A stretch of DNA of 64,000 nucleotides from Tubiluchus corallicola (taxonomy: Eukaryota > Animalia > Priapulida), in contig JAQGDQ010000040.1 in the NCBI GenBank assembly GCA_030141605.1, positions 744,001-808,000 on the forward strand. The letters are read 5' to 3'. How positions within the stretch are numbered: the stretch's first letter is position 1; each line of letters begins with the position of its first letter. Of the stretch, positions 1,898-14,629 are shown one piece after another. The position numbers and the translations under genes are program-made. A model generated the notes under the pieces. It did not search any database. It was not told where the DNA came from and saw nothing but the letters and a program-made list of their open reading frames with translations.

Positions 1898-2063
1898 CTG
1901 GATGGATTGGAACTGAGTTTTGGCACACGTGTGTAGTAAGAAGAGATTGTTTCAATTAAGAAAAAAGCAACTCGGTCGTGTGTTAGTCCCGCTGTTTTAG
2001 CAGCATCCAAAATCTTTGAAAGTCCAGAATTCTCATCTGACGTGTCGATGCACAAAATTATCG
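1898..2063 (-). CDS. Coding exon 2 of an NPR / receptor guanylyl cyclase-like gene (ANF_receptor extracellular domain)
   Basis: Acceptor ttttttttcag| and donor |gtaagac; 166 nt, entered in phase 1. Reads (A)IILCIDTSDENSGLSKILDAAKTAGLTHDRVAFFLIETISSYYTRVPKLSSNPS, resembling the NPR exon-2 segment VIIMC...IMLAA...G.T..DY.FF.I. Not in the ORF track. Confidence 0.8.
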
Positions 2064-2412
2064 CTGAAAAAAAAACGACAGGCTGAATTCACTGAGTTGT
2101 TTGAACTCGTGCTACTGCATCATTGTCAGTTTGTTATGCTGGCATCGCTGTCAGTTTGTTCTATGTCACGGTGTATGTTGTTTGTCCGTCAAAAAAGGCT
2201 ATCCAAAAATACATTACTAATAGTTCATATAAGATACTTGCAAAATTTGCAAAAGAGACTGTTTGGGTTGAAACAATCCAGGGTGACTGCGTACCTGTTT
2301 TACCAATACGCTTTTTTATCAGCAGATGTAATTTGTCATGCATACAGCTCGTTGTGCCACATCAGCTATGGACAATTAGCCTACTTACAAACTTACCTGT
2401 TTACTCACTTTC

Positions 2413-2668
2413 TTACTTACTTACTTACTTACTTACTTACTTACTTACTTACTTACTTACTTACTTACTTACTTACTTACTTACTTACTTACTTACTTAC
2501 TTACTTACTTACTTACTTACTTACTTACTTACTTACTTACTTACTTACTTACTTACTTACTTACTTACTTACTTACTTCTTACTTACTTACTTACTTACT
2601 TACTTACTTACTTACTTACTTACTTACTTACTTACTTACTTACTTACTTACTTACTTACTTACTTACT
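2413..2668. repeat. (TTAC)n microsatellite
   Basis: Directly visible. Source of the LLTY-repeat ORFs 2016..2792 and 2123..2740. Confidence 0.97.
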
Positions 2669-9990: not shown

Positions 9991-12900
9991 ATGCTCTGAA
10001 AACAAAGAACATAAGCTTAGTTAATTTAAAAAAAAGACGCAGAACTGAACAGAACGTTTGTAAACTTTGTGAAAGATAGATGTAATTTATAAATTTTCCA
10101 AAACAGTCTATTACCAGTTGTGACAAACCAGCTACTATTTACGGTATTTTTTGCTGTTTGATTGTTTGATTGTTTGTTTGTCACCTTCTTATTTCACGTT
10201 TTCTTGTGGTGATTGCCAGTGTATCTACTTGCATTATCAGCAATCGCATTATCTTATTATTAGCCTAGTACAGGAGTCCTGCTAACGCATCCCTTCGTCT
10301 AGTAGATGTACTTTGGAACACATACTATGTTCGCGGCTCCTTTCAAACGGGTGAAATCCGTACAGGTATGAAGTGTGCCCGTTCTTGAATTGCTTAAGCC
10401 ACCTTAAAGGACCATTATCTGATCTTTCGTATGTCTTTGGAAAGACAGCCAGAAATATCAGTTAGCACTGCCGATGTTAATTAAATAAGCAGAAGTAAAC
10501 GCCACTATTTCTTCTGTCAGCAGTCATTTTTTGCAGTGCTCTCGAATCTGGGACAAATATATTACTTTAGTTTCATGAGGTGGCTGCCGTCACCGCCGTT
10601 GTTCGGAGATTCATCCAAACTGGAAGTCACGGCGAAGTGCATGGTGGACGTTCCATTGTTGACAGAGTAAACCCCGTTGTTGGTGAGTCCGTAGATTTTA
10701 CTTGAGGTTAGCAGCTGTGGTTTTACTATGTAGATGGTGCGTTTGGTAAGCTAAGAAGTTCGTACATTTCTGCAGCGTTTGCTAATAAGACTACTTCATT
10801 TGTTTTTCGTCATTGAGAGTGCTTCACCGTTTGCGCGCTCTCCGTGCTACGCCTATTAACTACTTACTCTATTATTAGACTAGGAAATTTATTTGCTTAT
10901 TTGCGTACTGTGATTGTTATTGATGGACTGTGCCTCTTCTATAGGTTAAATTCTTCTAAAATAGTAATCAATTAAATTTTGTACACAGCTTAATAATTAG
11001 TTTATCAATCACGTTAGTTTGTGAATCTGTCATTGAATAAGTAGCTCAGTATAACTCCATTGATACAAGTAAACGCTGTAAAACAAAATTTAATGTAAGT
11101 GTTTCACTCTTGTGTGACCTTAAATTATCAAACCATAAGGTGTGTTTTACGTCATGAAAAAAAATGTATTACTTAAGGACAAAAACTCGGTTGGTTTTGA
11201 AAAGAAAAGCTAATATCTGTAATCATAACATCATAAAAAGTTGATATCATTTTATAATATTGAAATACCATGAGAGTAGTATTGACAGTTTATATGATGG
11301 CAGCTTTATAGTTGTTTGTAAACGCTATAGTGAAGAGCGCAGATAGAGGCCCTGCATCTTTATTTATTTACTAAATAAAATATTTAAAATAATTTCTTTT
11401 AAGATGACTTATATGTACATGCCTCCGATAAGTGACTTTTATTAAGCAGTGGATATGAATACATGTAATTCATGGTGTTTTTTAAATTAACGCTTGTCTT
11501 TCAAGATGTATTTATTTTTATCAATACCCATGTCTTATCCAAAATTGTAGTTCGTTGAACATCTGGGATCTCTGCGGGCTACGGATAAGCAATGTAAAAA
11601 CGCAAACAAAAGCAAATAAAGAAGTAATCTTTATTTATTACTGACACCGAGATTATAATTTAAAGAAGCGTTAGTAGCTGTTAACATATTAGCAAATGTC
11701 AGTAATTTGTGTTTTTCGAAACGTTCATCACGAATTAGAGAGTAATTCTTAACCCAGACATCGCCGCCATAGAAACCTTGCGCAATGTGACCTAAGACGC
11801 TACAAGATGCGTAAAAAATACAAGTTAGGTATTTGTTCAGATGGCGAAAAAGTCTGTGATCTGCTATAATCCTTATTAATCTGCAGGTTACACTGAGACT
11901 AAGTCAGAATTTTGATGAGTAAGTCGGTATTATGCGTATATTTAAGTCACCAGTAGTCTCTTATATAATAGAGGAAGCAGTTTACTAAAGTAGCATCACT
12001 ATTTTCTGTTTATTTTTAAAACGCTGAGATATTCGCTTCAAACGCCAATATTCACTTCCAAATTCCCACTAAAGCGTTTTTGTTAAATGCAGATCGTCGC
12101 AAAGGAGAAAAGTCTCCATTTTTTCTGCAGCAGAATTTCGAATACAAACGTCGTCTTAATTAATTAGCTTTTAACACGTTCAATTAGTTTATCTAGAGAG
12201 CAAGTTCTATGTAGATTTAACTAGGTTTACTAGAAGTACGTTTTTATCATTACACAATTACATCATGTAGACACACACGTTGGCATAAAAAAGGACGAAC
12301 TTCCGACAAACTATCTACGAACCAAGCCTTAGTTCCTAAAATTTATTAAAACTGAAATTATTGGATTTCAAATTTTAACAATAGTATTGTGTTGTCTTCG
12401 TCGCTAGTAGTTATGCAGTAACTGACAAAGATTTCGTCATGCTCCCTAGCTGGGTAACAGGAAGTAACGCTGCTCCCAGGGATTCGCGCCTTGCTGTTCA
12501 GCATTACAGCAAAATGTATTACAGCTTACATTCTTTTTTATCATTTTACAATTTGAGTTCTATACAAAATTTATGTATAATGTCAAAAATAAAGTTATAG
12601 TGACACTGATATTGCCAGACTTAACAATCCATAAAAACAACTGTAAAACTCGCTGCTGCTGTTTACGTTTTCTAAGTAAATGAAAAGTGTTAGACTAGTT
12701 ATCGAAAGTAGTACACTGTGTAGGTAAAAATTCACAGTAGGAAAACAAAATTACCTAGGAAAAATAAACAGCTTACCAATAAACACATTTTAAGTTACTT
12801 TTTTGAGATGGGACAGTTTTTAGGATGATGGACCAAACACAATTTTTGTTTTACTACTATGTAAATGATCACAAACTGTGTAAGACTAAATAAAGTAAAC

Positions 12901-13956
12901 TCTTAAAACTTACATAGCTACAGCATTGTTTACTCTCCTCCATGAGATGCAGAAATTTACATAAACATAAATTTTTGAGGGTGTTTTCACAAGTGCACCA
13001 GTACCGCCCACAAAGCTGTGTTGTAGGAAGGTCCACCGGGCATTTTTGTAATTTAGAGATATAGGCCTTCAAGAAAATCACAGGGGTAATTCTCCCCACA
13101 AATGGTACCAAGATGCTGTCTGGCTCACGGACTATAGGTTTAGTTAGACTTTTTAAAACTAGTATTTGAAACAAACAGAATTGTTTTCTAGGAGAGCGTC
13201 GCTACTTTCAATATATGGTCCTTCGTACCACGAAAACACTGTCTAAATAATCAGTTTCCAATTAGTTCTGCAATTTCCAATATATTACTGTCTATTAGAA
13301 ATGTAAATTTTTCATACAGACAGATGCAGGTATTTTTGCTAACATAGACGTATTTACATTCGGCTTGTGTGTAATGGAGCCTATGACTCATTCTTGCTAT
13401 CGAGTTTAAATAATGATCTTATCTTATTTTCTCATAGCTAGTATTAGCCAAAACAGAGCGTGCTTAAATACAAAGCGTTATCCAGTTTATTGTTATGAAA
13501 TAAATCCAACTTTATCCTAAAAAATACCGTGCATGTTCGTTGGAGGACAAATCTGTCCCTGGTATGCCCTTGTTAAGCAATAATGCCAGAAAATTTTCGT
13601 TTCGGAGTTTCAATTTTTTGCTTTTAGTTTCACTATTGCATGTGCATCACACAAAAATTAGATACGCGCTCAATATCCTAACGACAAATGACATTTTTGA
13701 TCACTTTGGAGATATGTGGATCGTAAACGCCAAGAATGCGCATCTTAAGAATTCACTTCTTCAAAATGTCTTATTAAGATCTATAATCTGTTCAAATCTT
13801 TTGTGTTCAACATTTGACTTATCTGTGGCCCTAGCTCCATCTACAATGGGCGCAGTTAAAGCACATATACACATACATATTCTTTCCCTTATTTATGCGT
13901 TAAATACGTGTATTTCATTGGTTGTACATATCCAGCATAGTCCAGAGTACGCTTAC

Positions 13957-14629
13957 CTTTTACTCTTCTTTTAAGTTTTAACAATCTGTTTATCAATTCT
14001 TCTTTACTGTGCTCCAAAACGAAAAACGAATCTACGACGCCATGTTGCTTTTCAATATCGCTTCTGATTTCACGCCCGAAGTCTATCCATCTCTGTGAGT
14101 TACCAACAATCATTGCTGTGTATTTCCATTTGAAGATATACTGTAAAGTGTGGGCCAAAGCCCCCCCTGTTTGACTTTCAGTTGTTACGGTGCTTGCAAA
14201 AAAACCGTACAAGTCTTTGTTGAGCAACGAATCATGTTGACAACCCCAAGAAACCATGGGCTTCCGCCACTGTGTAGCCAGTCTCGCGGTCGGTTCACAC
14301 AAGTAGCGATTTACTGGTCCAATATAGGCATCCAGACTAGTGAGGTCCAGCTCGACGAACTCAGCTAAGCCATCAGAGAACGTGCAATGTATGTCATGCA
14401 AAGTGTCCTCCAAATCCCAGTGAGCGCCAAGCAATCCTGACTCCCTGATGTGCTCCACTGCTGTTGTAGTTGTCACCCTGGGCAAGGCATCAGTGAATAT
14501 GGATTTAGGACATTTTTCCGGCGCTAAGACACTGATCCTATAAGACCTAAACCCGTTCTTGCAAACGGTTGGGTCAAAAAATACCACAAGAAAGAATCCT
14601 ATTAGGTGCTTTAGTCCAAGCGCCGACAT
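13957..14629 (-). CDS. Large first coding exon (variant A) of an NPR / receptor guanylyl cyclase-like gene: signal peptide plus N-terminal ANF_receptor ligand-binding domain
   Basis: MSALGLKHLIGFFLVVFF signal peptide; motifs LDAYIGP..YLCEPTARLATQWRKPMVSWGC and FKWKYTAMI; ends RRVK G|gtaagc (phase 1 donor). Paralogous to 8056..8713. Confidence 0.85.

What the first reader, a model, noticed from the sequence alone, without database searches (positions are those of the whole stretch)
1898..14629. Receptor gene with two interchangeable ligand-binding first exons and one shared exon 2 (protocadherin/UGT1-style variable-exon layout)
Seen: two paralogous exons of 673 and 658 nt (13957-14629, 8056-8713). 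Each has its own ATG and signal peptide, is fully open despite strong divergence, and ends at the same codon and phase (RVK G|gt). I found no NPR-like downstream exon in the 5.2 kb between them. The only exon 2 (1898-2063) lies downstream of both and accepts either in frame. Known: in vertebrate NPR/membrane guanylyl cyclase genes the large first exon encodes much of the hormone-binding and dimerisation lobe. Inference: alternative promoters may swap the peptide-recognition module on one shared membrane/cyclase body, giving two ligand specificities (or heterodimers) from one locus. I do not recall this design being described for this family.
Basis: partly seen in the sequence, partly recalled or inferred. 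Interest (0 to 1): 0.8.

Follow-up and report, generated by a model that had tools for sequence, protein, structure and literature searches.

The report
Swappable-head retinal-type guanylyl cyclase gene
An animal gene of the retinal-type receptor guanylyl cyclase group carries two intact, long-diverged copies of the exon for the front half of its outer sensing domain ahead of a single next exon, so it likely makes two receptors on one signalling body that would differ in what they bind, a layout also seen in database models of a related clam gene.

Summary
Exons A (14629-13957) and B (8713-8056) are open, about 30% identical in protein, and saturated at silent sites. Both have strong donors and fit one exon 2 (2063-1898) in frame. 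Profiles find two heads, one exon 2 and no convincing kinase-homology or cyclase exon in the window.

Three corrections. (1) All three exons are of the retinal-GC (GUCY2D/F) type, not NPR. (2) A has a strong acceptor 69 nt before its ATG, so it is probably not the literal first exon. (3) The design has precedent in this family: two Mercenaria NPR-like isoform models share an identical 841-residue body behind 35%-identical heads, switching at the same boundary, and C. elegans gcy-28 has promoter-specific isoforms with different starts. This scan also noted the layout before, on another piece of this genome and in an acorn-worm genome.

Best reading: either head is spliced onto one receptor body (about 0.7; by separate starts 0.5). 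Splicing, the body left of position 1 and any ligand difference are inferred. I found no head swap elsewhere in the retinal-GC group, but sampled few invertebrates. Bases from about 50.9 kb on are bacterial.

The parts
13957..14629 (-). Head exon A, coding part: signal-peptide-like start plus the N-terminal half of an ANF-receptor ectodomain (224 aa + 1 nt), phase-1 donor
   Evidence: (PF01094, E 7e-24)
14630..14722 (-). Strong splice acceptor (exon base 14698) and 69-nt untranslated stretch before A's ATG; candidate cis- or trans-splice entry
   Evidence: rank 9 of 2919 AG, crude matrix; sequence; use not shown
9907..9995 (-). Candidate small exon between A and B: strong acceptor, weak donor; possible 5' untranslated exon of B or alternative acceptor for A
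   Evidence: (rank 5 of 2919); no Pfam match; unproven
8056..8713 (-). Head exon B, coding part: signal-peptide-like start plus the N-terminal half of an ANF-receptor ectodomain (219 aa + 1 nt), phase-1 donor
   Evidence: (PF01094, E 1e-24)
1898..2063 (-). Exon 2, the only one in the window; continues the ectodomain; retinal-GC type
   Evidence: best match Ptychodera retinal-GC-like residues 242-285; 30.2 bits on invertebrate retinal-GC profile, 1.7 on NPR-type

Best explanation
This is the 5' end of one retinal-type receptor guanylyl cyclase gene with two intact, anciently duplicated head exons, each likely transcribed from its own start and spliced to the same exon 2, which would put either head on one predicted membrane-cyclase body. 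Shown: two open heads, one exon 2 in the window, compatible phase, shared family, and a fold matching residues 1 to about 210 of the NPR1 ectodomain. Inferred: transcripts from the upstream start use A's donor and skip B, which has no strong acceptor near its ATG; transcripts from the downstream start use B. The transmembrane, kinase-homology and cyclase exons would lie left of position 1. The two isoforms would be expressed in different cells or stages and would differ in the dimer and ligand-binding surface, while making cGMP through the same intracellular part.
For: Exactly two heads and one exon 2 among 2827 six-frame segments, and no convincing body exon between A and B in 21 tiled profiles, so A cannot be a complete gene upstream of B. 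Both heads and exon 2 fall in the same subfamily (clade support 100/99). Long purifying selection on both heads: codon-position identity 0.48/0.56/0.28, 4 of 23 fourfold sites identical, and 19 of 24 family-conserved columns kept in each (relatives keep 17-23). In simulation the frame stayed open in 34 of 1000 runs after 0.1 neutral substitutions per site, and in 11 of 1000 after 0.05 with indels. Strong donors on both heads. Precedent at the same boundary: Mercenaria isoforms X5 and X6 have an identical 841-aa body and 35%-identical heads. Oyster models carry 31%-identical heads on 96%-identical bodies, and the two mollusc head types form separate clades across species. C. elegans gcy-28.c and gcy-28.d have separate promoters, different starts, one shared end and different expression (PMC9249223, passages).
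Against: Both junctions are read from DNA sequence only, and the body lies outside the window, so a second body cannot be excluded. A has a strong acceptor before its ATG, and a second strong acceptor lies at 9995; both fit other splicing routes. A lacks the arginine that the other 11 of 12 aligned heads keep in the F-x-R-T motif, and it scores and folds somewhat worse than B (150 vs 172 bits; pLDDT 74 vs 82). The precedents belong to a different subfamily (NPR-like). No head swap turned up among the retinal-GC-type full-length proteins I held, though only 4 of the 120 listed were named invertebrates. The window contains an animal-to-bacterial join near 50.8 kb, so its contiguity is not beyond doubt.
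Confidence: 0.5

Rival explanations
1. Same head swap, different control: one promoter and a shared non-coding leader exon upstream of A, followed by mutually exclusive inclusion of A or B.
For: A begins with a strong acceptor (14698, rank 9 of 2919). B has weaker candidates (8862, rank 59; 8914, rank 85) and a strong one further up at 9995. Joining A to one candidate acceptor upstream of B gives a stop two codons later, which would remove double-inclusion products. A non-coding first exon in vertebrate GUCY2D is recalled, not checked.
Against: B lacks a strong acceptor next to its ATG. The 5.2 kb between the heads imposes no steric exclusion. The family precedent gcy-28 uses separate promoters. 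An acceptor before A also fits a private 5' untranslated exon or a trans-spliced leader.
Confidence: 0.2
2. Only B is spliced to exon 2. A is a recently silenced relic, or makes a short secreted half-ectodomain by read-through or by splicing to the acceptor at 9995.
For: A's frame runs on past the donor to a stop near 13890. It has lost a near-invariant arginine and scores below B. There is a strong acceptor at 9995.
Against: A keeps 19 of 24 conserved columns, as B does, and an open frame that neutral decay would soon break. It keeps a top-ranked donor exactly at the family boundary. A half ectodomain lacks the rest of both lobes (it matches only residues 1-210 of a 426-residue chain).
Confidence: 0.13
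3. Assembly artefact: A is the head of another retinal-GC paralogue and was joined upstream of B by mistake, for example through a repeat.
For: The window has an animal-to-bacterial join near 50.8 kb. High-copy repeats lie between A and B (summed contig depth 259-699 at 8.9-9.6 kb and 203 near 12.9 kb).
Against: A misjoin would have to place a paralogous head on the same strand 5 kb upstream of another, reproducing a layout seen in mollusc isoform models. Allelic collapse is impossible at 30% identity. Contigs of a public run cover 28 of 30 bins of 8.0-14.9 kb, and the listed pieces match the window closely, although none spans the stretch.
Confidence: 0.1
4. Two interleaved genes: A splices over B and exon 2 to its own exon 2 and body further left.
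For: Nothing left of position 1 could be read. A and B are diverged enough to be old paralogues and are not resolved as sisters.
Against: It needs a whole paralogous gene nested on the same strand in an intron, with its strong exon-2 acceptor (rank 3 of 2919) skipped. One body explains the data more simply and has precedent.
Confidence: 0.07

Closest known systems
Retinal/olfactory receptor guanylyl cyclase group (vertebrate GC-D, GC-E, GC-F; Ptychodera flava XP_070538684.1 'retinal guanylyl cyclase 2-like')
   Same: Both heads fall in this clade (100/99) and exon 2 matches its profile; A and B are 35% and 30% identical to the Ptychodera head.
   Different: No member that I held shows two alternative heads (few invertebrates sampled). 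The body of this gene was not seen.
Mollusc NPR1-like isoform models (Mercenaria mercenaria isoforms X5 and X6; oysters, mussels, abalone, scallop)
   Same: Divergent heads of about 225 aa on one body, switching at the boundary homologous to RVK|AIILC.
   Different: A different subfamily (NPR-like clade), so the layout here likely arose separately. These are database models whose transcript support and genomic layout I did not see.
C. elegans gcy-28 isoforms c and d (PMC9249223, passages; PMC3842693, passages)
   Same: One receptor guanylyl cyclase locus with separate promoters, different N-terminal starts, a shared C-terminal end and cell-specific expression.
   Different: How much of the ectodomain differs was not stated in the passages I read (recalled: the isoforms differ in the extracellular part). 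One mollusc NPR-like model is named gcy-28-like, which suggests the other subfamily.
UGT1, GCNT2, UGT2A and clustered protocadherin variable-first-exon clusters (PMC1885805, abstract and Background section)
   Same: Tandem paralogous exons, each with a signal peptide and the recognition half of the protein, ahead of shared constant exons.
   Different: Those have many variable exons (about a dozen in UGT1), shown transcripts and are unrelated proteins; here there are two exons and promoters are not shown.
Vertebrate NPR1/GC-A ectodomain (PDB 8tg9, 9bcl) and NPR-C (1yk0)
   Same: Predicted models of A and B align with residues 1 to about 210 (Z 13.1, rmsd 8.9, 193 aligned; Z 14.2, rmsd 10.2, 191 aligned). 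The physiological dimer is reported to form head-to-head through membrane-distal subdomains (PMC4584282, PMC4049422, passages).
   Different: A different clade; the large rmsd reflects an unfixed angle between lobes in half-domain models, and for B a calcium-sensing receptor chain ties for first place (Z 14.4). No ligand is known here.

Membership tests
Receptor (membrane) guanylyl cyclase | Signal peptide and ANF-receptor-type ectodomain | tested here: met
   PF01094 above cut-off in A and B; N-terminal 9-residue hydropathy 3.2 in both (no dedicated signal-peptide predictor was run); fold match
Receptor (membrane) guanylyl cyclase | Single transmembrane helix, kinase-homology domain and cyclase domain | not testable with these tools
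   These exons would lie left of position 1; no genome is held; none found inside the window
Retinal-GC (GUCY2D/F) orthology group | Ectodomain groups with vertebrate GC-D/E/F and hemichordate retinal-GC-like proteins | tested here: met
   46-row tree, clade support 100/99; 123-row quick tree, 96; exon 2 scores 30.2 and 21.1 bits on retinal-GC profiles, shuffles at most 6.2
Retinal-GC (GUCY2D/F) orthology group | Orthology confirmed by the intracellular domains | not testable with these tools
   Intracellular exons are outside the window
NPR1/NPR2-like clade | Ectodomain groups with NPR1-like proteins | tested here: not met
   A and B lie outside the NPR-like clade; exon 2 scores 1.7 bits on the NPR-type profile
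Variable-first-exon cluster (UGT1/protocadherin layout) | Tandem paralogous variable exons, each with a start codon, signal peptide and same-phase donor | tested here: met
Variable-first-exon cluster (UGT1/protocadherin layout) | One shared set of constant exons | tested here: inconclusive
   One exon 2 and no other convincing body exon in the window; the rest of the gene was not seen
Variable-first-exon cluster (UGT1/protocadherin layout) | Each variable exon is a first exon with its own promoter | tested here: inconclusive
   A has a strong upstream acceptor, B does not; upstream CpG observed/expected is about 1.0-1.1 against a median of 0.64 but not among the top windows
Variable-first-exon cluster (UGT1/protocadherin layout) | Transcripts join each variable exon to the constant region | not testable with these tools
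   Needs RNA reads across both junctions; see Tried and rejected

The most novel reading that the evidence does not exclude
An invertebrate orthologue of the vertebrate retinal guanylyl cyclases uses two ancient, separately maintained heads to sense two different extracellular ligands, or to form A/B heterodimers with a third specificity, through one cyclase. Head swapping at this conserved intron arose independently in several receptor-guanylyl-cyclase lineages and is a general, largely undescribed way of multiplying peptide receptors in invertebrates.
Probability: 0.3. Interest if true: 0.7.

Novelty: new variant of a known kind. Interest (0 to 1): 0.42.

Why it matters
If both heads are used, this locus is a natural chimera experiment: two ectodomain halves 30% alike on an identical body. 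Long selection on two different heads would argue that the ectodomain of retinal-type cyclases recognises something outside the cell. In vertebrates GC-E and GC-F are regulated from inside by calcium-binding proteins (PMC1435932, passage), and only GC-D has reported peptide ligands (PMC6170504, passage). It would also mean that counts of receptor guanylyl cyclases per genome understate receptor diversity, and that gene models with two heads in a row may be mis-fused alternative exons. Interest is tempered because the layout is known from UGT1 and protocadherins, appears in database isoforms of a paralogous mollusc gene and in gcy-28, and is not shown here by RNA.

Tried and rejected
Expression: no RNA holder was listed for 8040-14760. 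Of 2 listed runs, X1 laid as short contigs over intron and exon alike, with no joint at either donor listed, and X2 laid nothing. This says nothing for or against expression. X1 covered 46.5-50.8 kb and gave no cover from 50.84 kb on, apart from the tRNA; lack of cover proves nothing by itself.

Own genome: none held.

Homologue searches: exon B against longer proteins gave 0 of 209 candidates. Exon A against PDB sequences gave none. A metagenome scan with exon B gave 46 pattern matches, none confirmed. The closest relatives among 1.84 billion representatives are only about 30-38% identical, so dN/dS against a close species was not possible. The ESM Atlas returned ANF-receptor clusters only as named hits.

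Weak profile hits judged as chance (21 tiles): 17707-17621 minus (E 0.004, cyclase tail, no other cyclase exon found), 58553-58651 plus (E 0.008, bacterial part) and 6746-6696 minus (E 0.06). Exon 2 itself scores only E 1e-4, so a more diverged exon-2 copy could be missed; the better conserved intracellular exons are much less likely to be.

Sister relation of A and B: neither shown nor rejected (AU p 0.33), so the age of the duplication is open.

Head swap within the retinal-GC group: the 4 pairs with a shared end over 300 aa among the proteins over 700 aa held were an internal alternative, two truncated starts and one variant pair.

The pair comparison stopped with an error after the Mytilus californianus pair (same head, internal difference); later pairs were not run, and they include no same-species pair.

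Literature: searches listed no paper describing variable head exons in receptor guanylyl cyclases (listings only, open-licence library). The two original gcy-28 papers were not held and may describe it. Supplements were not read.

Rejected: allelic haplotypes (30% identity); a complete gene between A and B; NPR-type identity.
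Full report
What is there. On the minus strand, exon A (14629-13957, 673 nt) and exon B (8713-8056, 658 nt) each begin with ATG and a hydrophobic stretch, are open, and end R-V-K plus one base before a GT donor. Exon 2 (2063-1898, 166 nt) follows a T-rich acceptor and continues either head in frame. 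Both heads match Pfam ANF_receptor above cut-off. They share 63 of 218 residues and show no blastn match. In a crude ranking of splice signals of my own, the donors rank 5, 10 and 4 of 3120 and the exon-2 acceptor 3 of 2919.

How many copies. A head profile built from 28 relatives without A and B scores B 172 and A 150 bits; the next of 2827 six-frame segments scores 4. An exon-2 profile finds only the known exon (E 9e-5, next 0.56). Twenty-one tiled profiles over the rest of a full-length receptor find no convincing exon in the window; the three weak hits are listed under Tried and rejected. So A is not a complete gene upstream of B, and there is no third head up to the bacterial block. The rest of the gene must lie left of position 1 and could not be read.

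Both heads are maintained. Over 214 aligned codons, nucleotide identity is 0.48, 0.56 and 0.28 at the three positions, and 4 of 23 fourfold sites agree, so silent sites are saturated. Each head keeps 19 of 24 family-conserved columns (relatives keep 17-23). In simulation, a frame of this length stayed open in 34 of 1000 runs after 0.1 neutral substitutions per site, and in 11 of 1000 after 0.05 when indels were allowed. Both heads fold with the same order of strands and helices (pLDDT 82 for B, 74 for A) and align with residues 1 to about 210 of the NPR1 ectodomain (rmsd 9-10 A because the half-domain models do not fix the angle between lobes; for B a calcium-sensing receptor chain ties for first). 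Against full equivalence: A has lost an arginine kept by the other 11 of 12 aligned heads.

Which family. The best full-length match is Ptychodera flava 'retinal guanylyl cyclase 2-like', whose body retrieves hemichordate, sea-star and vertebrate retinal cyclases. In a 46-row tree A and B fall in the retinal-GC clade with support 100/99, apart from NPR-like proteins. Exon 2 scores 30.2 bits on an invertebrate retinal-GC profile and 1.7 on an NPR-type profile, with 300 shuffles reaching at most 6.2. A published phylogeny treats retinal, ANP, guanylin and eclosion-hormone receptors as separate clades (PMC12611267, passages). Whether A and B are sisters is unresolved (AU p 0.33). The shared end point is the family's usual boundary: single-exon ORFs of relatives break off at the same K-G or R-G, so it is expected under any kind of duplication.

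Precedent. Two earlier notes of this scan report the same layout, on another piece of this genome and in an acorn-worm genome; they are unreviewed AI notes, which I used as leads. I tested their mollusc claim. Among 16 proteins returned for a gastropod two-head model, 1 same-species pair shows the swap: Mercenaria isoforms X5 and X6 share an identical 841-residue end behind 35%-identical heads, switching at the boundary homologous to RVK|AIILC. The other same-species pair (Mytilus californianus) shares its head. Saccostrea X7 and Ostrea X6 have 31%-identical heads on 96%-identical bodies, while Ostrea X6 and Crassostrea X4 heads are 74% identical, and the two head types form separate clades across bivalves. 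These are database models; I did not see their transcript support. In print, C. elegans gcy-28.c and gcy-28.d have separate promoters, different starts, one shared end and different expression (PMC9249223, passages; PMC3842693, passages). That they differ across the ectodomain head is recalled, not read. The general layout is that of UGT1 and protocadherin clusters (PMC1885805, abstract and Background). Searches listed no paper describing it as a design of receptor guanylyl cyclases, but the original gcy-28 papers were not held. Within the retinal-GC group I saw no swap, with only 4 named invertebrates among the 120 proteins.

How it most likely works. One gene, two heads. I infer that each head has its own transcription start and is spliced to exon 2, with B skipped in A transcripts because it has no strong acceptor near its ATG (best rank 59 of 2919). 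A has a strong acceptor 69 nt before its ATG (rank 9), so it is probably reached from an untranslated exon or by trans-splicing and is not literally the first exon. A further strong acceptor at 9995 (rank 5) may be an untranslated exon of B or an alternative target for A. These signals keep a shared-leader, mutually exclusive route open. In NPR-A the physiological dimer is reported to form head-to-head through the membrane-distal subdomains (PMC4584282 and PMC4049422, passages), and I recall that its peptide-contacting residues lie within the first 200 residues. Swapping the head would therefore change the dimer and ligand surface while keeping the cyclase. For this subfamily no ligand is known from my calls other than guanylin and uroguanylin for GC-D (PMC6170504, passage), and a review places the toxin-binding site of GC-C in the membrane-proximal part (PMC3153297, passage), so 'two specificities' remains a hypothesis.

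Reliability of the assembly. From about 50.9 kb the window is bacterial by gene content, next to exons of an animal scramblase gene. This join is 36 kb from A but shows that the window is not clean. Between A and B lie high-copy repeats; contigs of one public run cover 28 of 30 bins of 8.0-14.9 kb, but no listed piece spans the stretch.

Verdict. Head swap about 0.7 (separate starts 0.5, shared leader 0.2); A a relic or truncated form 0.13; misjoin 0.10; interleaved genes 0.07. It works like a two-exon UGT1/protocadherin cluster. Membership of that kind is met for layout and open for promoters, transcripts and a single constant region. It is a new variant of a known kind: the layout has precedent in another subfamily of the same receptors, and I did not find it elsewhere in the retinal-GC group. 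Interest 0.42.

Noticed in passing
window 50870-64000: Intronless, densely packed bacterial genes (GH92 glycosidase, coaD, pyrE, M16 peptidase, GldA above its curated cut-off, tRNA-Gln at 54519-54592, an integrase-type arm domain) abut animal DNA. GldA points to Bacteroidota (recalled). Likely a chimeric join or contamination rather than transfer.
   Followed up: partly
window 47960-49410 (+): Two exons of an animal phospholipid scramblase gene (PF03803, profile positions 56-162 of 221). I saw no further exon before the bacterial block begins, but did not search for one.
   Followed up: partly
proteins P0015 (Polypterus, KAG2462139.1), P0065 (Batillaria, KAG5708737.1), P0070 (Lingula, XP_013400522.1): Gene models made of two NPR-like heads in a row without a body. 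They may be mis-fused alternative head exons; the Polypterus case (heads 67% identical) would extend the layout to a vertebrate NPR1-like gene.
   Followed up: partly
window 48500-49200: A very high-copy repeat inside the scramblase intron (summed contig depth up to about 18,000 in run X1).
   Followed up: no
window 41030-42550: Two inverted, 87%-identical copies of about 490 bases whose frames look like the tail of a LINE reverse transcriptase (my recognition; no Pfam match).
   Followed up: no
window 845-1106 and 2382-2672: Long tetranucleotide arrays (TCCA x65, TACT x73) on either side of exon 2.
   Followed up: no
proteins P0006 and P0154 (Ptychodera NPR1-like isoforms X2 and X1): The two isoform models differ in a stretch just inside the membrane and share the last 521 residues, suggesting an alternative internal exon.
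   Followed up: no
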